Part shown: in pieces, positions 1,115-37,901 of the stretch | Layout: the number at the start of each line of letters is the position of its first letter | Position numbering within the stretch: position 1 is the first letter of the stretch | DNA from: Escherichia phage vB_EcoM_G2540 | Sequence record: MK327936.1 | Strand: one strand, 5' to 3' | Length of the DNA stretch: 64,000 nt | Notes under the pieces: model-generated | The model's database searches: none | Told to the model about the DNA's origin: nothing | What the model saw: the letters and a program-made list of their open reading frames with translations, nothing else | Program-made: the position numbers and the translations under genes

Positions 1115-1831
1115 ATGAATTATAAACTAATTTATGAAAAGTTAATCTCTAATGCTAAATCTCGAAAACTTGATTGTTATACTGAATCTCATCACATTAT
1201 ACCACGCTGTTTAAATGGCAGCGATGATGCTTCAAACTTAGTAGATTTAACACCAGAAGAGCACTATGTAGCTCATCAACTTTTAGTAAAAATTTATCCT
1301 TCTGAACCAAAATTAGTCTATGCTGCTAACATGATGACAGTTTCTACGAAATACGCTAAACGCAACAATAAAACTTTCGGTTGGATTCGTCGTAAACTCT
1401 GGGAAATAGAAAAGAATAAAGAATTCTCCCAGGAGACACGAAAGAAAATGTCTGATGCAGTAGCTAATAAAGCAAGACTAACTTGTCCTCATTGCGGTAA
1501 GTCTGGATTAAGCGGGAATATGAATCGTTGGCATTTTGATAACTGCCCAAATCACCCTAATCCTAAAGTTAGACCACCAATGTCTAAAGAACACAGAAAT
1601 AATATCTCAAACGGGCTTAAAGCAATCGTTCTTGAAGAAACATCCTGCGAATTCTGCGGAATGATAGGCAAGAAATGCGTTATCGCAGCGCATAGAAATT
1701 TCTGCAAGAAAAATCCAAATGGACGCAAGAAAACTGAAAAGACTGGTACTTGCGTCCATTGTGGTAAAGTTACCACTTTCGGAAATTTATCAAGATGGCA
1801 TAATGATAACTGTAAATATAAACTTAGCTAA
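1115..1831 (+). CDS. Free-standing HNH-family homing endonuclease with repeated Cys-rich zinc-finger motifs
   Basis: 238-aa ORF on strand opposite to neighbours; ESHHIIPR...EEHYVAH HNH-like core; three CxxCG...H..NC repeats; TATAAATA late promoter 34 nt upstream. Confidence 0.7.
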   Translation: MNYKLIYEKLISNAKSRKLDCYTESHHIIPRCLNGSDDASNLVDLTPEEHYVAHQLLVKIYPSEPKLVYAANMMTVSTKYAKRNNKTFGWIRRKLWEIEKNKEFSQETRKKMSDAVANKARLTCPHCGKSGLSGNMNRWHFDNCPNHPNPKVRPPMSKEHRNNISNGLKAIVLEETSCEFCGMIGKKCVIAAHRNFCKKNPNGRKKTEKTGTCVHCGKVTTFGNLSRWHNDNCKYKLS

Positions 1832-3512
1832 TCTTAGCTAAACTAAATCTACCAACTTTTTCCATCTGAATATGCTGACCATATTCTTGTGGGTCATGGT
1901 CTTTATGTGAAATTATGAAGAAGTTGGTATCCTTCAAACCATCTAAAATTTTAGCTACATTTTTAATACCTTCAGCATCAAATGCACCGTCATACACTTC
2001 ATCAAGAAATAAACAACTTATTTTAACACCTGAAACTTTTTCAGCAATATCACGCCAAGTAAATAAAAGAGCAATATCAATTCGTGCTTTTTCACCTTGA
2101 CTGAATGAAGCATAACTAAAATCTTCACGACCACGGGATTTAATTGTCTCATTAAATTCTTCATCTAATGTAAACACATAATCCGCTTCCATTATTTTAA
2201 GATAATGGTTAATCTGCTTATTAAATAATGGAATGTACTTTTTAATAATAGCACCTTTAATACCAGAATCTTTGAGCATATCAGTCAAAATTCCTCGGTG
2301 GTATTTTTCCATTACTAAATTAGTTTTTGTCTTAACAATTTTATCAAGTTCTTCTTGAAGCAGTGCTATTTCATCAGCATGGTCAATAAACTCAGAAGAT
2401 GCTTTTTCTATAGCCGCTTTAACTTTTTTAGCTTTATCTACCGTCGTGATTAGAGATTGCTTTTTATTGCGAATATCATTTGCCAGCGACTGCTGGGTTT
2501 TAATATTATCTCGGTATTCATCAACAAGAACTTTTAAATTATCACGATGTGTTGAAAGCTGTTCAAACGAATGCGTGCATTCAGAAACTTTATCTTTAAT
2601 TTTAGAAACAACTTTATCACCGGAACTTAATTGTGACAAACAGGTTGGACATAATCCACCTTCGTGATACATATTAATGACTTTATTATATGAGTCAATT
2701 TTTGATTTAATTAAAACTGCTTCTTGACCGATTTTATTAAATGCATCAGTCGGGTCTTCATCCAAAACAATATTAACTAATCTTTCATTAGCTTCTTCTA
2801 TTTCCGATTTTAGCGTTCTAGCTTCTTTTGCCAAATCATCGTACATATTTTGCAGACGAGTAAGGTTGTCACCCGTTAATTTTTTCTGGCGTTCAACGTT
2901 ATCATTATATATTTTAATTTGTTGGATAATACTATCTTTTTTAACATCAAGCACTTGGTTCTGCGAATTTAATTCACGTATTAGTGCTTTATTAAGCTTA
3001 TCCATTTCAGCTAATGTTCCTACCTCGAGCAGGTCTTCCACAAGCTTTCTTCGCGCAGGGGTCGACAAACCCATGAAAGGGGTATACCCTGCTGTACCAA
3101 GGACAACAATCTGCTTGAAACTGGCATATGACATTCCGATAAGCTGTTCAAATTCTGCTTGGAAATCTTTACTGCTGGCAGATTCATTAAGACGTGTACC
3201 GTTAACGGTGATTTCGAAAACGTTTGGTTTTTGTCCTCTTTTGATATAGTACTTTTTCTCATCATATTCCATCCACAGTTCAACTAAAAGTTCTTTCTTA
3301 TTTGTGCTGTTTATTAATTGACCTTTCTTTACATCACGGAATGGCTTGCCAAAAAGCCCAAATGTGATGGCTTCTAACATAGTAGACTTACCACCGCCAT
3401 TTCGTCCAGTAATAAGAGTTTTTTGAACCTTATCTAATTGAATGTCAATAGGATTTCCACCTACTGACATTATATTTTGATACCTAACTCGGTTTAGTTT
3501 AAAATTCTTCAC
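1824..3512 (-). CDS. 46: Recombination endonuclease subunit gp46 (Rad50/SbcC-like ATPase)
   Basis: 562 aa; Walker A GRNGGGKST near N-terminus; long coiled-coil middle; size and position match T4 gp46. Confidence 0.9.
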   Translation of the reverse strand: MKNFKLNRVRYQNIMSVGGNPIDIQLDKVQKTLITGRNGGGKSTMLEAITFGLFGKPFRDVKKGQLINSTNKKELLVELWMEYDEKKYYIKRGQKPNVFEITVNGTRLNESASSKDFQAEFEQLIGMSYASFKQIVVLGTAGYTPFMGLSTPARRKLVEDLLEVGTLAEMDKLNKALIRELNSQNQVLDVKKDSIIQQIKIYNDNVERQKKLTGDNLTRLQNMYDDLAKEARTLKSEIEEANERLVNIVLDEDPTDAFNKIGQEAVLIKSKIDSYNKVINMYHEGGLCPTCLSQLSSGDKVVSKIKDKVSECTHSFEQLSTHRDNLKVLVDEYRDNIKTQQSLANDIRNKKQSLITTVDKAKKVKAAIEKASSEFIDHADEIALLQEELDKIVKTKTNLVMEKYHRGILTDMLKDSGIKGAIIKKYIPLFNKQINHYLKIMEADYVFTLDEEFNETIKSRGREDFSYASFSQGEKARIDIALLFTWRDIAEKVSGVKISCLFLDEVYDGAFDAEGIKNVAKILDGLKDTNFFIISHKDHDPQEYGQHIQMEKVGRFSLAKIS

Positions 3513-3772
3513 AAAAGATTCCTTTTAATGTATCTTTTAGACCATTCTATCATATCATCATAATCTAAAAAGTATTCATCAAATTCAGCCATGCAAACAA
3601 CACCTTGTGCTGCTTTTGATGTGATATAAATTATTCCAACATATCTAGAATCTTCTTCGGTATAATCAATATTTGCTATGAATTCATCATTAATGTCAAA
3701 TGTCGAAAACTTCACAGTATGCATCCTTAATACAAGATACAGCCATATCTTGTAATGATTTAGGTGTGTCAT
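3509..3772 (-). CDS. Hypothetical protein (46.1 position; true start may be internal)
   Basis: ORF track; overlaps upstream ORF by 77 nt so annotated start is uncertain. Confidence 0.35.
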   Translation of the reverse strand: MTHLNHYKIWLYLVLRMHTVKFSTFDINDEFIANIDYTEEDSRYVGIIYITSKAAQGVVCMAEFDEYFLDYDDMIEWSKRYIKRNLL

Positions 3773-3959
3773 TATCTAAAATGTTGAAGTTAAAAGATAC
3801 AGCCCAGTCAGTGCAGACCGTAACCTTTTTAATACAATTATCTTCAACCTCTAACGGTTCAAACCAATATTCAATAATTTCTTTATGACCAATATCATCT
3901 TTTACTTCGCATTCAAAATGCTGACTCATCATAACATTTTTAAATTCATCAAAAGTCAT
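3696..3959 (-). CDS. Hypothetical protein (46.2 position)
   Basis: 87-aa ORF between genes 47 and 46. Confidence 0.4.
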   Translation of the reverse strand: MTFDEFKNVMMSQHFECEVKDDIGHKEIIEYWFEPLEVEDNCIKKVTVCTDWAVSFNFNILDNDTPKSLQDMAVSCIKDAYCEVFDI

Positions 3960-4975
3960 TGTGTTGCCTCTACATATAACTGATTTGCATATTGAATAAG
4001 TGCTTCACGGTCAGAATCAGTGATGTCTGGAATTGCATTAATGTATTCTTCCATCAACGTCTGAAGAGATTGAACTTCAACTTCTTCACTTTCATCTGAC
4101 TCGACAGAGTTATCAATCTTTGACACAACTCGTAATGAATGCACAACTTTTTCTAGTTCAGATTCGAACTTCGTTAGATTTTTGTCTACTTCAGTTACTA
4201 TAACACGTACTGATAGATTTGTAAAATCTTTATAGTCAATTTTTCCTTTAAATGGATAATGAATTCTGCGATGCCAAGTAGTGTTGTTTGGAATAAATTC
4301 CATTCGTTCTGTTTCTGTATCAAACATCCAGAACCCGCGAGGGTCATTCTCGTCACCTGCAGTTAGTGTCCATGGTGTCCCAATATATCTGACATTTGCA
4401 GCCTCAGAGATAGTATGGAAGTGACCAGACCACACTTCTTTATAAGTCTTAAGGAAATCAGGTTCAAGACCGTGAGATTTCATTCCTTTATAAAAATAAA
4501 ATCCATTCAGTTCCCAGTGACCAACACAAAAAGAAGCAGATGAAGTTTTGATGTGTTCAAGAATTTCACCAGTATTTTCTTCGCACATCCAAGGAATCAA
4601 ATCAATCAAACATCCGTCAAAATCTACTGTAGTAGGCTTATCATATACTTTAACATTAGGATATTTAGCCAAAAGCTCAGTAGAGGCATTTGGATGCATT
4701 ACATTTTTGTAGTGGAGATCGTGATTTCCTACAATAGTATGTAATGTGATTCCAGCGTCATCAAGCATTTGAACTATTTCACGGGCAAACTCCATAGTTT
4801 TATGCGTGATTGCTTTTCGCACATCAAAAATATCACCATATTGAATCCATACAGTAATTCCATTTTTCTTAGAATATTCTATCGCTTGCTTAATTCCATC
4901 AATTTGAATACCGCGAATCCACTCATCATCAGCTTTAACGCCTAAATGCCAATCACCCAAGTTTAGTATTTTCAT
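3956..4975 (-). CDS. 47: Recombination nuclease subunit gp47 (Mre11/SbcD-like phosphoesterase)
   Basis: 339 aa; calcineurin-like motifs GDWHLG, GDIFD, GNHD; size matches T4 gp47. Confidence 0.9.
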   Translation of the reverse strand: MKILNLGDWHLGVKADDEWIRGIQIDGIKQAIEYSKKNGITVWIQYGDIFDVRKAITHKTMEFAREIVQMLDDAGITLHTIVGNHDLHYKNVMHPNASTELLAKYPNVKVYDKPTTVDFDGCLIDLIPWMCEENTGEILEHIKTSSASFCVGHWELNGFYFYKGMKSHGLEPDFLKTYKEVWSGHFHTISEAANVRYIGTPWTLTAGDENDPRGFWMFDTETERMEFIPNNTTWHRRIHYPFKGKIDYKDFTNLSVRVIVTEVDKNLTKFESELEKVVHSLRVVSKIDNSVESDESEEVEVQSLQTLMEEYINAIPDITDSDREALIQYANQLYVEATQ

Positions 4976-5576
4976 GGTGTCTTTTCCATCCTAATTTAGC
5001 TGCTTTTGAAACCAGTTCTTTAATTTTTCCTTTTGTCCATTCAGGACCAGGAGGTTCATGACATAACATTTGCTTAACTCCGTTATTATACCATTTTTTA
5101 CCTTTATTATGTGATGAAGCTTTAAATTTATTTGACCTTCCTTTTACATAACCTTCTGGAATATAAGGCAAAAAGGCAGATTTTCCTGTTAATGGATCAT
5201 GTGAATGTATATTTCCTTTACAATTATGAGAACCATATAATGGATGATTTTGTCCTTTATTATCTCTTCCAAATGAACCTTTTGGAGCAGCATATGACAT
5301 ATTAAAGAATAATGGATTTTTAACTGCATCATGCAATCGTTGATAATATAACTCGCATTTAATAGCTTCTTCACGCGTATCAAATTCAGCTAAAATGCAT
5401 GAATCAAATAAGTGAGGATTATCTGAAAGCTCTTTATTATAAATTTTCTTATACTTTTTAGATAAAACTGAACCATGATATCCAGCTAAATGCCTATCTA
5501 AAGACGTAGATCCAATATAAAAAGGAGGAAGTTTATCTCCACTATATATTGTTAAATAAGTTATATATTTTTTCAT
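4953..5576 (-). CDS. GIY-YIG (Seg-like) homing endonuclease candidate with NUMOD-like C-terminal motif
   Basis: N-terminal YITYLTIYSGDKLPPFYIGST resembles GIY-(10 aa)-YIG; C-terminal GPEWTKGKIKEL resembles NUMOD3; basic C-terminus. Confidence 0.5.
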   Translation of the reverse strand: MKKYITYLTIYSGDKLPPFYIGSTSLDRHLAGYHGSVLSKKYKKIYNKELSDNPHLFDSCILAEFDTREEAIKCELYYQRLHDAVKNPLFFNMSYAAPKGSFGRDNKGQNHPLYGSHNCKGNIHSHDPLTGKSAFLPYIPEGYVKGRSNKFKASSHNKGKKWYNNGVKQMLCHEPPGPEWTKGKIKELVSKAAKLGWKRHHENTKLG

Positions 5577-5737
5577 ATATCAAGAACCGTCATTGAAATG
5601 CAAAATAAAATTATTGAAATAAACCCATCTGGTGTGCTAAAGAACCCAATCCAACATGCTTTAGTGAATAGATAAAATGCAAGAAAAAGTATCACATATC
5701 CAAGAAATATCATTATATCAAACTCCGTATAAAGCTA

Positions 5738-5755
5738 AAGGGCCGAAGCCCTTTA
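5738..5755 (-). terminator. Hairpin at end of a-gt (AAAGGGC-CGAA-GCCCTTT)
   Basis: Perfect 7-bp stem with tetraloop overlapping the a-gt stop; T-rich on both sides. Confidence 0.4.
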
Positions 5756-6955
5756 TTTTGTAATAATGTCAAACTGTTCTTTAAAGCAGAAGCTTGAATC
5801 TTGATGCTGATACAAAAATTCATATGCTTTTTCACGCTCACGGTCATAAAGAGCTCGGTCAGATGACAGTTCTTTAATACGTTCAAATGTTGATTCCATA
5901 TCATTTTCATCAAACCAAATGATACCGCTATCATGCGAGGTCAAAGGAGTATTATCAACACGGAATTTTAAATTTTCGCCAGTAGATTTCCAAAATACCG
6001 GAATTGTTCCACATGCACCAAGCTCGAGATGAGTATATTCTAAAGAGCGCTGTAGATATTTTTTATCCAACTTACTCAACTGATAACCAAATCCGGATTT
6101 ACTCATACGTTCAAGCATTTCGCTATTTACATAACGATCGAGAATTTGCGTTGGTAAATTAGGAGCAATTTTAATTTGGTCTACTTGATGAAGACGATAA
6201 TACTCGTATGGAATTCCTTTTTCTTTAATAGGAATGAACGCTGGAGAACGTTCCAGACCTTCCATAATAGTACTTAGTCCTGCAGGTTTAAGATGTTTTT
6301 CGTGAAAATCAAACATCTGATAAAAACCTTTCCATGTAGTCGTACGACCAATCCAACGGTTGACATTCATGTTAATTTCAGAAACATCTTTCCAGTAGGT
6401 TGACCGAACCTTCGCAATATCCATAGGAGGCTGAAAGTTATATACGGTCGGCGCTTCTTCAATATCATCAAACAGAGAAACAGTTTCTGGATACCATTCT
6501 TTCATCAGAACTTTATTAAAATCACCATTATCAGAATGGCTAAAAATAACATCAGCTCGACGAACAGTTTCTTCTAATCCCAAATTTCGACGCAAAGAAA
6601 GAGAAGAATGGTCATGTTGATAAACTACAACACGAACCGAAGGTTTAATGTTATCAATAATTTTTTTATAGTTATTAATAGTGTCTTCTTCAACTGAAGT
6701 AGCAGGAACTGAATTGATAATTAGAATATCACAATCATTTACCAGCTTAAGTGTTTTATCGTATTCTTTTGCCAATAAAACCGGAATTGAAAATGATTTA
6801 TAATCATGCGCACAGTTACGAGTAAATGATTTATCTTTGGCATAAACCAAAGTTACTTCATGACCATTTTTAATAAACCAATCACGTTGCTCGAGTGAGA
6901 ATTTTGTTACACCACAACCTTCAAGACCTCGAGCCATAAAAATACATACTTTCAT
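5753..6955 (-). CDS. a-gt: DNA alpha-glucosyltransferase
   Basis: 400 aa; N-terminus KVCIFMARGLEGCGVTKFSLEQRDWFIKNGHEVTLVYAKDKSF matches recalled T4 a-gt. Confidence 0.85.
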   Translation of the reverse strand: MKVCIFMARGLEGCGVTKFSLEQRDWFIKNGHEVTLVYAKDKSFTRNCAHDYKSFSIPVLLAKEYDKTLKLVNDCDILIINSVPATSVEEDTINNYKKIIDNIKPSVRVVVYQHDHSSLSLRRNLGLEETVRRADVIFSHSDNGDFNKVLMKEWYPETVSLFDDIEEAPTVYNFQPPMDIAKVRSTYWKDVSEINMNVNRWIGRTTTWKGFYQMFDFHEKHLKPAGLSTIMEGLERSPAFIPIKEKGIPYEYYRLHQVDQIKIAPNLPTQILDRYVNSEMLERMSKSGFGYQLSKLDKKYLQRSLEYTHLELGACGTIPVFWKSTGENLKFRVDNTPLTSHDSGIIWFDENDMESTFERIKELSSDRALYDREREKAYEFLYQHQDSSFCFKEQFDIITK

Positions 6956-7007
6956 TTAATATCCTCTTTGTTTTGGTTTATTTTACCAAAAATTTATAAA
7001 GCAATAT

Positions 7008-7025
7008 AGGAGCCGAAGCTCCTAT
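7008..7025 (-). terminator. Putative hairpin terminator (AGGAGC-CGAA-GCTCCT)
   Basis: Perfect stem with tetraloop; interrupted T-run. Confidence 0.35.
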
Positions 7026-7198
7026 CCGCATAATACGCCATACAAAGGCTCATTAGAACTTCTAAATTTTATGCGCTTATATGTTATAGTTCCTTCTGCT
7101 TTAGCTTTATCATAAGACTCTTTAAAGCGTCTCATCATTTCCTCTTTAGAGGAACGAATTTTATTATAATCTATTTCAGAAGTCTGGATGTTCATCTT

Positions 7199-7405
7199 TC
7201 ATAACTGCCACCATTTTTTGACTTGATAAGAATCAACCCACACTTTCATATTAGGGTCTGCTCTTACAATAGGAGGATTAACTTCTTTAATTGAACTATC
7301 ATGGTATTCTTTTTCAGAAATTTTCACACAAAGATGACCATTCAAAGATTCAGTAAATCCTGCATTAATTTTAAGACGCTTGAATTTTACGTGTGTAAGC
7401 ATCAA
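7199..7405 (-). CDS. Hypothetical small protein
   Basis: ORF track only. Confidence 0.3.
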   Translation of the reverse strand: MMLTHVKFKRLKINAGFTESLNGHLCVKISEKEYHDSSIKEVNPPIVRADPNMKVWVDSYQVKKWWQL

Positions 7406-25311: not shown

Positions 25312-25878
25312 TCACTTTGAAATCATAGTTGGAATGGCAGAATCAAGATAAGTCTTTAGCGCAATAGCTTCGTCTTTTGTAAATGTAACAATATGTGCTC
25401 GAAAATCGTCAATTTGGCGAATAGTTAAGACATCTCCTTCTTCATAACATTTTGATACATTTAAAACAGTTTCATCATTCTGATCGCACTGATCGCAAGC
25501 GTTAGTAATAATAGCATTGCAATTTTTGAGCCATTTTAAACTATGTTTTCTTTCATTAGAATAATAAAAATATTTAATCTTAGCTATAAAACTATCCCAA
25601 TGGATAACTGATAAACACATTGACTCACTTTTAATATTAAATCCTGGGCATGAAGAATAAAAATGAATTTTGTGCTCATCATTGATGCTTACTATTTTAT
25701 CAGTATAAGGATATTCAATTTGGATTAAATGAACGATTTCACTAGGCGTAAAATATAGCATATCGTCTTCTTGCGTCAAACGATACATGTTATTTACTTT
25801 TTCTATAGCCAATTCACCAAAAAGCGGACTAACTTCTAATACTAATCGTTTCATATTGATTCTCTTCGACTCACTCAC
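25312..25878 (-). CDS. Hypothetical protein (paralog pair member), GTG start
   Basis: 188 aa; GTG at 25878 preceded by AGGAG; C-terminal TKDEAIALKTYLDSAIPTM. Confidence 0.45.
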   Translation of the reverse strand: MSESKRINMKRLVLEVSPLFGELAIEKVNNMYRLTQEDDMLYFTPSEIVHLIQIEYPYTDKIVSINDEHKIHFYSSCPGFNIKSESMCLSVIHWDSFIAKIKYFYYSNERKHSLKWLKNCNAIITNACDQCDQNDETVLNVSKCYEEGDVLTIRQIDDFRAHIVTFTKDEAIALKTYLDSAIPTMISK

Positions 25879-26023
25879 AATTACATACTCCTTTGAATAA
25901 TATCAATAATGTTGTTCACCAGATTATAAGTAAACATTGGGTAATTATATTGAATCATCACATACACAACAAACAAAACTTTCATTCTCTTCTCCTTGAC
26001 CGTTGACAAGATTACTATACCAT

Positions 26024-26053
26024 AACCTTGTCAACTTGTAAACCATTAAATGA
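26024..26053 (-). promoter_or_regulatory. T4-type early promoter
   Basis: GTTTACA-17-TATAGT on minus strand. Confidence 0.55.
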
Positions 26054-26208
26054 CGTTTTCAATAAAATTCTGAAGCTTTGTGTGAGCATCAACCATAATT
26101 TTCATTTCTTCCTTTGCGAAAGCTGTACCTCTTTCCCGAGCAGAATACTCATAGTCAGAAACTGCATTAGCATATTCTTCAATTAGCTTCATTAAAAACA
26201 TTTGCTTT

Positions 26209-26439
26209 TCAGTTTTCATTATTCCACCTAATCATTTCAAGATATTGAACTAACTTAGCTTTGGATTTATCCAAATCCTTTTTAGCTGCTTCTATACCGT
26301 CGTATGAATATCCTTCACAGTGCTCAACTGCCAATTGATATGAATCTATTTCAATATCACGTGCTAATTTAATGATTTTTTCAAACTGTTCACGTGTTAG
26401 CATACTAAACTCTCGTATTATGATCAATAATTTCATCAA
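26209..26439 (-). CDS. Hypothetical small protein
   Basis: ORF track. Confidence 0.35.
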   Translation of the reverse strand: MMKLLIIIREFSMLTREQFEKIIKLARDIEIDSYQLAVEHCEGYSYDGIEAAKKDLDKSKAKLVQYLEMIRWNNEN

Positions 26440-26644
26440 GAAACATATCTAACGCTTCTAAAGCATTATCAACTTTAGCTTCAAATTTTTCAATACCTTT
26501 ATTTGCAATGCCTGCCGAAAACCAAGCAAAGTCACTAAGTTCCTCATCTGCTTTGCGAATTAAAGCTACCAATTCTTTAATTTTATCTGCTTGTTCAATT
26601 CTAGTCATTATTCCACCACATATGAAAGAGAGAATATTGCACAC
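26405..26644 (-). CDS. Hypothetical small protein
   Basis: ORF track. Confidence 0.35.
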
Positions 26645-37122: not shown

Positions 37123-37788
37123 TTAAAATTTCATTTTTCGACCTTTAAACCATCCTTCTGGAATTGGGTCAGTTTTCTTAATAAGTTTAGAAACTTTTTC
37201 ATCTAATGAATGAATCCACATCATACCAAATTGGGAATTCTTTTCGCCTTGTTGGTGTTTATTTCTGGCGTGAGATTCTTTCATTTTATTAATAGTTTCA
37301 AGAGTATGGGTCTTACCCAAGAAAGATTTAGTATTTAAAAATTTCTCTCTATACTTAGGATTATCCCAAAGCTGTTTAAACCTTTCTGAACCCATTTTAC
37401 GATATTTTTCTTTAAGGTCTGGGTCGTTCTCAAATCTGGTTTTAAAAGCGGCAGCTCCTTTTAAGGAAGCTTCTTTCTTTTTATCCAAATATTCTTTAGT
37501 GTTTAAATGGTCCCAACCACCTTCACCACCTAATTTCAAATTATAAACATCAGGGCGCTTTAAAAACTCTTCAGTCACAATATTCTTTTCTGACTCAAAC
37601 ATAGAGGTTTTATCGTCAAAGAACTCTAATATTTCTTTAGAAAAATTTTCTATACCATACTTATCTTGGGCTCTTTTTAATAATTTACCAGAACCCATAT
37701 ATCCATCATCTAAATTTTCGGTAGAATGCACACCAATATAAATTTTATTATTAATTTTATTTGTTATTTTATAAGTGTAATGGAACAT
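37123..37788 (-). CDS. segB: GIY-YIG homing endonuclease SegB
   Basis: 221 aa; YTYKITNKINNKIYIGVHS GIY-YIG motif; embedded in tRNA cluster as in T4. Confidence 0.8.
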   Translation of the reverse strand: MFHYTYKITNKINNKIYIGVHSTENLDDGYMGSGKLLKRAQDKYGIENFSKEILEFFDDKTSMFESEKNIVTEEFLKRPDVYNLKLGGEGGWDHLNTKEYLDKKKEASLKGAAAFKTRFENDPDLKEKYRKMGSERFKQLWDNPKYREKFLNTKSFLGKTHTLETINKMKESHARNKHQQGEKNSQFGMMWIHSLDEKVSKLIKKTDPIPEGWFKGRKMKF

Positions 37789-37829
37789 AAATATCTCCTA
37801 TTTCTAAGAGTATTTATGTTCCCAAAATA

Positions 37830-37901
37830 TGGCCCTGGGTGGAATTGAACCACCATCTGGCGATTATGAGTCGCTTGCTTGAACCTTCCAGCTACAGGGC
37901 C
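37830..37901 (-). tRNA. tRNA with CAT anticodon (T4 tRNA-Ile-type; Ile via lysidine, or Met)
   Basis: Manual fold: acceptor GGCCCTG/CAGGGCC, anticodon loop CTCATAA, T-arm GGTGG-TTCAATT-CCACC. Confidence 0.75.

What the first reader, a model, noticed from the sequence alone, without database searches (positions are those of the whole stretch)
4953..5576. Seg-like GIY-YIG endonuclease candidate wedged between gene 47 and a-gt
The 207-aa ORF has an N-terminal YITYLTIYSGDKLPPFYIGST segment that fits a degenerate GIY-(10-11 aa)-YIG motif. Its C-terminus has a TKGKIKEL segment resembling the NUMOD3 DNA-binding motif of Seg proteins. Its 3' end overlaps the start of gene 47 by 23 nt. I do not recall a seg gene at this locus in T4.
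Basis: partly seen in the sequence, partly recalled or inferred. Interest (0 to 1): 0.5.

Follow-up and report, generated by a model that had tools for sequence, protein, structure and literature searches.

The report
SegE-like homing endonuclease beside gene 47
This 207-codon gene is a real, intact, selfish "homing endonuclease" of the phage T4 Seg type, inserted just upstream of the recombination-nuclease gene 47 in a minority of T4-like phages; it is an uncharacterised new member of a well-known kind.

Summary
The ORF (4953..5576, minus strand, 207 aa) is real and overlaps gene 47 by 23 nt. It lies between 47.1 and 47, not against a-gt. T4 lacks it: a clean 601-nt insertion separates T4's abutting 47.1 stop and 47 start.

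The N-terminal half is a GIY-YIG nuclease domain. The best structural matches of the predicted model are I-TevI and other GIY-YIG nucleases. A profile comparison with T4 SegA-E and SegG gives 98.6% probability. The closest T4 protein is SegE, colinear over both domains.

The C-terminus is not NUMOD3.

The ORF is in 68 phage records, while 465 have the empty junction. It is under strong purifying selection and is more uniform than its flanks. It is tightly linked only to the first ~150 nt of gene 47. Homologues of 50-70% identity sit directly upstream of gene 47 in five other lineages of T4-like phages. Paralogues with the same catalytic domain but another C-terminus sit upstream of gene 39.

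Best reading: a free-standing Seg-family homing endonuclease that targets the 5' end of gene 47. Cleavage and homing are inferred, not shown. New member of a known kind; databases often mislabel it "HNH endonuclease".

The parts
4953..5576 (-). Seg-like homing endonuclease gene, 207 aa, intact
   Evidence: ORF listing. PHROG 10820, E 1e-94. Identical protein present in public data (P0001). dN/dS 0.03-0.04 against other Tequatrovirus alleles.
5277..5576 (-). N-terminal GIY-YIG catalytic domain (residues ~1-100); family-invariant Y7, Y11, Y20, I21, G22, Y33, S39, E75, N92
5133..5228 (-). C-terminal repeat 1 (residues 117-148): beta-hairpin ending in IPEGYVKGR
   Evidence: Aligns with SegE repeat 1. 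Strands 123-126 and 133-136 in the model.
5019..5117 (-).
   Evidence: Aligns with SegE repeat 2 and the SegB C-terminus. Strands 161-164 and 169-172 and helix 186-201 in the model. No Pfam family, no NUMOD3.
4953..4975 (-). 23-nt overlap of the endonuclease 3' end with the start of gene 47; the tail ...HENTKLG* is read from gene 47's ATGAAAAT...
   Evidence: The same type of overlap, with tails containing -EN- (ENNS*, NENS*, ENSALR*), occurs in three of the five homologues examined: SmallBear, IME540 and Aeromonas L9-6.
4958..4967 (-). Four silent substitutions in gene 47 codons 3-6 (ATA CTA AAC TTG; T4 has ATT TTA AAT TTA), linked to presence of the ORF; candidate self-immunity or co-converted donor sequence
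   Evidence: Present in 10 of 11 genomes with the ORF and 1 of 10 without it. P(4 or more of the 38 differences from T4 falling in the first 25 nt) = 0.012.
3956..4975 (-). Gene 47 (Mre11/SbcD-like nuclease subunit), the presumed target gene; its first ~150 nt are co-inherited with the ORF
   Evidence: Fst 0.79 for nt 1-50 and about 0.4 for nt 51-150, falling to about 0 at nt 151-200. Upstream values range from -0.08 to 0.16.
5573..5713 (-). Gene 47.1 (46 aa, predicted membrane protein); its TGA overlaps the endonuclease ATG (ATGA), the same junction that serves gene 47 in T4
5736..5755 (-). GC-rich hairpin (GGGC-TTCG-GCCC) just after the a-gt stop; identical in T4; marks the upstream edge of the 47.1-ORF-47 unit
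   Evidence: The pattern scan found the same palindrome. Annotated as a terminator in fPS-90.

Best explanation
The ORF encodes a free-standing homing endonuclease of the T-even Seg family, with SegE-like architecture. It has an N-terminal GIY-YIG nuclease domain joined to an extended C-terminal DNA-binding region made of two WxNNG...PxG[WFY]xKG[RK] hairpin repeats and a helix.

Expression (inferred): it is read as part of the 47.1-47-46 unit. Its ATG sits in the ATGA junction that gene 47 uses in T4.

Action (inferred by analogy with SegA-G): in a mixed infection with a relative that lacks it, the C-terminal module binds a site in or next to the 5' end of gene 47. The GIY-YIG domain then makes a double-strand break. 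Phage recombination-dependent repair copies the endonuclease gene and the adjoining ~100-150 nt of gene 47 from the genome that carries the ORF. This is intronless homing with localized marker exclusion.

Self-protection (inferred): the carrier genome would be protected because the insertion splits the 47.1/47 junction, because of the four silent changes in gene 47 codons 3-6, or both.

Shown here: gene integrity, fold, Seg homology, insertion polymorphism, linkage pattern and locus conservation. Not shown: cleavage, target site and homing.
For: Fold and family:
- Pfam GIY-YIG 21.4 bits, matching bona fide SegE at 21.6 bits.
- Foldseek top 3 are I-TevI, probability 0.99.
- hhalign against T4 SegA-E and SegG: 98.6%, E 8.6e-16, 179 columns.
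- BLASTP against SegE: 28% identity over 193 aa, colinear through both C-terminal repeats.
- The N-domain profile ranks SegG, SegE, SegB and SegD first among 1119 ORFs.

Mobility:
- Clean 601-nt insertion relative to T4, with ATGAAAA at both ends.
- 68 records carry the ORF; 465 have the uninterrupted junction.
- In six of the nine verified ORF-carrying genomes compared with the window, the ORF differs by 1-3 of 601 nt, while a-gt differs by 2-11% wherever it could be compared.
- Differentiation between carriers and non-carriers is confined to gene 47 nt 1-150 and is near zero upstream.
- Damaged copies exist: frameshift in ESh36, truncation in GEP001, internal deletion in KNP1/KNP5.

Function retained: dN/dS 0.03-0.04 within Tequatrovirus and 0.12-0.22 between lineages.

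Target inference:
- Homologues of 50-70% identity lie directly upstream of gene 47 in a Klebsiella phage, Winklervirus, Dhakavirus, Mosigvirus and an Aeromonas Biquartavirus, whatever lies further upstream.
- Paralogues with the same N-domain but a different C-terminus lie directly upstream of gene 39 in four phages.
Against: - No biochemical or genetic evidence of cleavage or homing exists here or in the literature searched.
- The arginine at the I-TevI R27 position is not invariant in the family: it is R28 here, and K/R/N/S elsewhere. Active T4 Seg proteins also lack it.
- The C-terminal model has no structural match, so DNA binding is inferred from homology to SegE and SegB only.
- The population sample is small (10-11 carriers, 10 non-carriers) and the sequences are phylogenetically related.
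- The cluster of four silent changes is only modestly significant (P 0.012 for the first 25 nt; P 0.10 for any 10-nt window). It could simply be linked donor sequence.
- One empty-site genome carries the variant haplotype (EPIMAM01). One unverified record (ERS-1), whose ORF copy appears frameshifted, carries the T4 haplotype.
Confidence: 0.8

Rival explanations
1. It is a Seg-derived gene that no longer homes. It would be either a domesticated nuclease or DNA-binding protein serving the phage (for example excluding competitors, or modulating gene 47 expression through the overlap), or an inactive relic that persists by linkage.
For: The canonical catalytic arginine is not invariant. The conserved overlap with the gene 47 start could reflect a regulatory role. 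Strong purifying selection fits any useful function, not only homing. Several copies are disrupted without apparent harm to the phage.
Against: The metal-binding E75, N92 and the GIY/YIG tyrosines are invariant in 55 homologues. Only about 12% of related phage records carry the gene. Uniformity of the ORF across divergent backgrounds points to horizontal spread. A domesticated gene would be expected to be more nearly fixed.
Confidence: 0.12
2. It is an HNH endonuclease, as RefSeq records and PHROG 10820 label it.
For: The annotation 'HNH endonuclease' appears on many RefSeq records and on PHROG 10820.
Against: No HNH family appears in the Pfam scan even at E up to 10. All sequence-profile and structural matches are GIY-YIG. 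The label appears to be propagated misannotation.
Confidence: 0.01
3. It is an active Seg-type endonuclease, but its cleavage site is not in gene 47. The site could be in 47.1 or a-gt, or distant. Alternatively its patchy distribution reflects vertical descent with repeated loss rather than homing.
For: No cleavage site is mapped. Diversity in 47.1 is low, so a linkage signal upstream would be hard to detect. Rare empty sites with the ORF-linked haplotype (EPIMAM01 type, at least 4 records) suggest that precise loss occurs.
Against: In Winklervirus, Dhakavirus, Mosigvirus and Biquartavirus no alpha-glucosyltransferase is annotated upstream of the homologue, yet the gene still abuts gene 47. 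Fst is near zero in the diverse a-gt 3' end but 0.4-0.8 in gene 47 nt 1-150. The ORF is far more uniform than its flanks.
Confidence: 0.07

Closest known systems
T4 SegE (free-standing GIY-YIG homing endonuclease next to uvsW)
   Same: Nearly the same length (205 against 207 aa). The GIY-YIG domain has the Seg signature YIG-x9-GYxGS...E...N. Two C-terminal WxNNG...PxG[WFY]xKG[RK] repeats follow in the same order. BLASTP gives 28% identity over 193 aa, E 2e-5. Both score equally weakly on Pfam GIY-YIG.
   Different: Different locus and presumed target (gene 47, not uvsW). Only 28% identical. The window protein does not reach Pfam SegE_GIY-YIG. It has a 'GdKLPPF' loop between the GIY and YIG strands and a C-terminal helix. 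Its activity is untested.
T4 SegB, SegG, SegA, SegC, SegD
   Same: Same catalytic-domain family: hmmsearch E 2e-6 to 1e-1 among 1119 ORFs, all ranked at the top. All are free-standing genes between conserved genes. SegB shares one C-terminal PxGWxKGR unit.
   Different: SegA, SegB and SegD carry NUMOD3 and/or helix-turn-helix modules that the window protein lacks. Their insertion sites differ.
I-TevI (td intron GIY-YIG endonuclease), catalytic domain 1LN0/1MK0
   Different: I-TevI is intron-encoded. Its DNA-binding region is a zinc finger plus minor-groove helix plus helix-turn-helix. Sequence similarity is not detectable by HMMER. The R27 equivalent is not invariant in this family.
Paralogous GIY-YIG genes upstream of gene 39 (Yersinia TG1 gp009, Bp7 gp108, IME281 gp274, Klebsiella Biddle_MM4)
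   Same: In the three short-match phages (Biddle_MM4, Bp7, IME281) the N-terminal catalytic domain is 58-69% identical over roughly the first 115-135 residues. TG1 matches at 45% over residues 3-197. All are free-standing and abut the 5' end of an essential DNA-metabolism gene.
   Different: The representative IME281 and TG1 proteins (P0039, P0040) carry NUMOD3. The locus differs (topoisomerase large subunit). Together the two groups look like a natural swap of the targeting domain.

Membership tests
Seg family (free-standing GIY-YIG homing endonucleases of T-even phages) | GIY-YIG alpha/beta catalytic fold | tested here: met
Seg family (free-standing GIY-YIG homing endonucleases of T-even phages) | Sequence homology to T4 Seg proteins, including the YIG...GY(M/x)GS signature, the catalytic Glu and the conserved Asn | tested here: met
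   hhalign 98.6%, E 8.6e-16. hmmsearch ranks SegG, SegE, SegB and SegD first. Y20, I21, G22, Y33, S39, E75 and N92 are invariant.
Seg family (free-standing GIY-YIG homing endonucleases of T-even phages) | Free-standing gene (not in an intron or intein) between conserved genes, present in some close relatives and absent in others | tested here: met
   Lies between 47.1 and 47. T4, T2 and 465 phage records have the empty junction; 68 records carry the gene.
Seg family (free-standing GIY-YIG homing endonucleases of T-even phages) | C-terminal DNA-binding module | tested here: inconclusive
   Two repeats homologous to those of SegE and SegB. There is no Pfam family and no structural match for the C-terminal model. 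DNA binding itself is not shown.
Seg family (free-standing GIY-YIG homing endonucleases of T-even phages) | Site-specific double-strand cleavage of the allele that lacks the gene | not testable with these tools
   Needs purified protein and gene 47 region substrates.
Seg family (free-standing GIY-YIG homing endonucleases of T-even phages) | Preferential inheritance with co-conversion of flanking markers in mixed infection | not testable with these tools
   Indirect support only. The ORF is more uniform than its flanks, and linkage is confined to gene 47 nt 1-150.
NUMOD3-containing endonucleases (Pfam PF07460) | At least one NUMOD3 motif detectable by the Pfam model | tested here: not met
   No match in the whole protein (E up to 10) or the C-terminal half (E up to 1), although 29 of 55 family members do match. 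Only a remnant, GQNHPLYGSHN, aligns with the start of their repeats.
HNH endonucleases (database label for this protein) | HNH / beta-beta-alpha-metal motif | tested here: not met
   No HNH family in Pfam at E up to 10. All structural matches are GIY-YIG.
Canonical GIY-YIG motif as in I-TevI | GIY and YIG separated by 10-11 residues, with an invariant Arg about 8 residues after YIG | tested here: not met
   Spacing is 12 or 8 residues. The R28 position is K/R/N/S across the family. Active T4 Seg proteins share this departure.

The most novel reading that the evidence does not exclude
This is an unnamed Seg lineage that has tracked the start codon of gene 47 across at least six lineages of T4-like phages. 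In four of the six (the window, SmallBear, IME540, L9-6) its own stop codon lies inside gene 47. Its recognition site would be the DNA encoding the N-terminus and phosphoesterase motif I (LGDWHLG) of the Mre11-like nuclease, a nuclease implicated in processing breaks during homing. The four silent changes in codons 3-6 would be the self-immunity determinant. With its gene 39 paralogues it would form a natural domain-swap pair that shows how GIY-YIG endonucleases are retargeted.
Probability: 0.35. Interest if true: 0.45.

Novelty: new member of a known kind. Interest (0 to 1): 0.3.

Why it matters
Seg endonucleases shape which alleles survive when T-even phages co-infect a cell. This one would bias inheritance of the 5' end of gene 47, an essential recombination nuclease, in modern E. 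coli, Shigella and Yersinia phage isolates, including therapy candidates.

Practical points:
- The common RefSeq/PHROG label "HNH endonuclease" should read GIY-YIG, Seg-like homing endonuclease.
- The gene 47 and gene 39 paralogue pair (same nuclease domain, different targeting domain, different locus) is a clean natural system for studying how GIY-YIG endonucleases are retargeted.
- Nothing here challenges current understanding.

Tried and rejected
- Sequence searches of the PDB with the protein and with a 55-sequence profile found nothing relevant. Only fold comparison linked the protein to I-TevI.
- NCBIfam gave only a chance match. PADLOC gave a weak 'homing endonuclease' match, E 0.01.
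- NUMOD3 was rejected.
- A pattern scan of IMG/VR for the conserved gene 47 sequence returned only six loci, all empty sites. Genomes carrying the ORF had to come from GenBank phages and Logan contigs.
- The sigma-70 promoter scan found no more sites than in shuffled sequence. A MotA-box-like AGCTTTA with a TATAAT overlapping the 47.1 ATG was seen, but it is identical in T4 and untested, so it is not claimed.
- Literature searches found no named seg gene at the 47 locus.

Full report
**Context.** The window is a Tequatrovirus (T4-like) genome segment, 96-98% identical to many E. coli phage isolates. On the minus strand the gene order is 55, a-gt.5 to a-gt.2-like ORFs, a-gt (5753..6955), 47.1 (5573..5713), the ORF in question (4953..5576), 47 (3956..4975), 46.2, 46.1 and 46.

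**Observation.**
- The 207-aa ATG-started ORF is at the stated coordinates and contains both quoted peptide segments.
- Its stop lies 23 nt inside gene 47. Its ATG shares ATGA with the stop of 47.1.
- T4 (NC_000866) has 47.1 abutting 47. Aligning the two shows a clean 601-nt insertion in the window, with ATGAAAA at both ends.
The upstream neighbour is 47.1 rather than a-gt.

**What the protein is.**
- Pfam gives only GIY-YIG: residues 4-84, 21.4 bits, E 3e-4, just under the 22.6-bit cut-off.
- This weak score is typical for the family. Proven T4 SegE scores 21.6 bits, SegD scores 19.2, and SegG matches nothing.
- PHROGs places the protein in phrog_10820 (E 1e-94, labelled 'HNH endonuclease') and more weakly in phrog_314, 'homing endonuclease'.
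- An AlphaFold model built on 55 homologues (pLDDT 86) has beta-beta-alpha-alpha-beta-alpha order in residues 4-81.
- The three best Foldseek matches in the PDB are the I-TevI catalytic domain, with probability 0.99 for the best two.
- The HNH label is therefore wrong.
- A profile of the N-domain, searched against 1119 stop-to-stop ORFs from the window and 144 kb of T4, ranks SegG, SegE, SegB and SegD directly after the query itself (alignments).
- Profile-profile comparison with T4 SegA-E and SegG gives 98.6% probability, E 8.6e-16, over 179 columns.
- The family-invariant residues are Y7, Y11, G13, P17, Y20, I21, G22, S23, Y33, S39, L56, F57, A71, E75 and N92. They include the GIY/YIG tyrosines, the metal-binding Glu and the structural Asn.
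- The 'GYxGS' motif matches 'DGYMGSG' of SegA-E.
- The residue at the I-TevI R27 position is R28 here but varies in the family. Active T4 Seg proteins lack it too, so this does not argue against activity.

**C-terminal half.**
- There is no NUMOD3 match in the whole protein or the C-terminal half, although 29 of 55 relatives have it.
- Residues 117-148 and 154-186 are two copies of a hairpin motif, G-x-x-[WI]-[YH]-x-N-G...P-[ED]-G-[YWF]-x-K-G-[RK].
- T4 SegE has this motif twice in the same order, and SegB has it once.
- Overall the protein is colinear with SegE: 28% identity over 193 aa.

**Evidence that it behaves as a mobile element.**
- The 601-nt insert is found in 68 phage records. The uninterrupted T4-type junction is found in 465.
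- No T-even or RB phage appears among the 60 of 68 carrier records listed. T4, T2, RB6, RB18, RB27, RB33 and RB51 have the empty junction.
- I aligned 11 genomes with the ORF and 10 without it.
- In six of the nine verified ORF-carrying genomes compared with the window, the ORF differs by 1-3 of 601 nt. Their a-gt genes, where they could be compared, differ by 2-11%.
- Between carriers and non-carriers, Fst ranges from -0.08 to 0.16 over the 600 nt upstream (47.1 and the a-gt 3' end). It is 0.79 in gene 47 nt 1-50 and about 0.4 in nt 51-150, with lesser bumps up to nt 300.
- Four consecutive silent changes in gene 47 codons 3-6 occur in 10 of 11 carriers and 1 of 10 non-carriers.
- Placing 4 or more of the 38 differences from T4 in the first 25 nt has P = 0.012. 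The cluster alone, anywhere in the gene, has P = 0.10.
- There are two exceptions. EPIMAM01-type phages have an empty site with the variant haplotype, in at least 4 records. ERS-1, an unverified record whose ORF copy appears frameshifted, has the T4 haplotype.
- Damaged copies exist: a frameshift in ESh36, a truncation in GEP001 and an internal deletion in KNP1/KNP5. Some of these may be sequencing errors.
- Intact alleles show dN/dS of 0.03-0.04.
- Together this fits the usual homing-endonuclease cycle of invasion, maintenance, decay and loss.

**Where it probably acts.**
- Full-length homologues (50-70% identity) lie immediately upstream of gene 47 in five other phages:
  - Klebsiella phage SmallBear
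  - Serratia phage LC53 (Winklervirus)
  - IME540 (Dhakavirus)
  - AV116 (Mosigvirus)
  - Aeromonas phage L9-6 (Biquartavirus)
- In the last four, no alpha-glucosyltransferase is annotated upstream of the homologue.
- In three of these five (SmallBear, IME540, L9-6) the stop codon lies inside gene 47. Their tails contain -EN- (ENNS*, NENS*, ENSALR*), read from gene 47's ATGAAAAT.
- Homologues that share mainly the catalytic domain lie immediately upstream of gene 39 in four phages: Biddle_MM4, Bp7 and IME281 (58-69% identity over roughly the first 115-135 residues) and TG1 (45% over residues 3-197). The IME281 and TG1 proteins carry NUMOD3.
- C-terminal module and locus therefore co-vary, as expected if the C-terminus sets the target.
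- The 5' end of gene 47 encodes MKILNLGDWHLG, the first phosphoesterase motif. This is the kind of constrained sequence that homing endonucleases typically exploit (general knowledge of the field).
- I infer a target in the first ~150-300 nt of gene 47. The cut site itself is unknown.

**Expression.** The insertion keeps the 47.1 ATGA coupling for the endonuclease and gives gene 47 a new upstream context. Promoter scans were uninformative.

**Known or new.**
- Unequal distribution of seg-like genes among T4 relatives is well documented (PMC2993671, PMC2988022).
- I found no paper that names or tests a seg gene at the 47 locus.
- Database labels vary: hypothetical protein, putative homing endonuclease, homing endonuclease, HNH endonuclease.
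- The N-domain family is large: 1460 clusters at 50% identity with E up to 1e-3. Among the 150 best-scoring clusters listed, most share only residues ~1-117.

**Verdict.** This is a genuine, probably active, SegE-like GIY-YIG homing endonuclease gene inserted upstream of gene 47. It is a new, uncharacterised member of a known kind. Interest is modest.

Noticed in passing
window 37126..37797 (-): A second Seg-type gene in the window: an orthologue of T4 SegB (83% identity over 221 aa).
   Followed up: partly
window 6956..7200, compared with T4 L001 7886-8680: T4 carries the HNH gene mobB between a-gt and a-gt.2. The window has no such gene there: a-gt is followed by a 57-aa ORF at 7022..7195. 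This is another homing-endonuclease presence/absence difference within 2 kb of the finding.
   Followed up: partly
L027 (T2) 4523-5137; L025 (PhiZZ23) 4565-5419: T2 and Citrobacter phage PhiZZ23 carry an annotated homing endonuclease gene downstream of 46.1 and upstream of 46. The window (46.1 at 3509..3772, 46 at 1824..3512) and T4 have none there.
   Followed up: no
L008 2498-3181; L030 1798-2478; L031 1804-2484; L032 1798-2475: Paralogues whose main similarity is in the N-terminal catalytic domain (45-69% identity; the TG1 match runs on to residue 197), with a different C-terminus carrying NUMOD3 in TG1 and IME281, sit directly upstream of the topoisomerase large-subunit gene 39 in Yersinia TG1, Klebsiella Biddle_MM4, Bp7 and IME281.
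   Followed up: partly
L029 (EPIMAM01) 3001-3120; also PBM-1, UGKSEcP1, UGKSEcP2: These have an empty 47.1/47 junction but carry the four silent gene 47 changes otherwise linked to the ORF. This could be a precise loss of the endonuclease gene, a cleavage-resistant empty allele, or the ancestral donor haplotype.
   Followed up: partly
RefSeq records such as NC_054933, NC_054911, NC_054916; PHROG 10820: This protein family is systematically labelled 'HNH endonuclease', although every profile and fold result says GIY-YIG.
   Followed up: yes
KNP1 (KX452694) 25869-26465; KNP5 (NC_055713) 37294-37890; L022 (ESh36) 2501-3125; L023 (GEP001) 2501-3049: Disrupted copies of the ORF: an internal deletion of about 120 nt, a frameshift and a premature stop. 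They fit endonuclease-gene decay, but some may be sequencing errors.
   Followed up: partly
window 4876..4925 (gene 47 nt 51-100), in genomes without the ORF (L012, L016, L017, L028, L029): Phages without the ORF fall into two sharply different haplotypes in gene 47 codons ~19-27: WIRGIQID (T4-like) and WVQSIQLD. All phages with the ORF have the T4-like version. Diversity here is 0.12 among non-carriers and 0.03 among carriers.
   Followed up: partly
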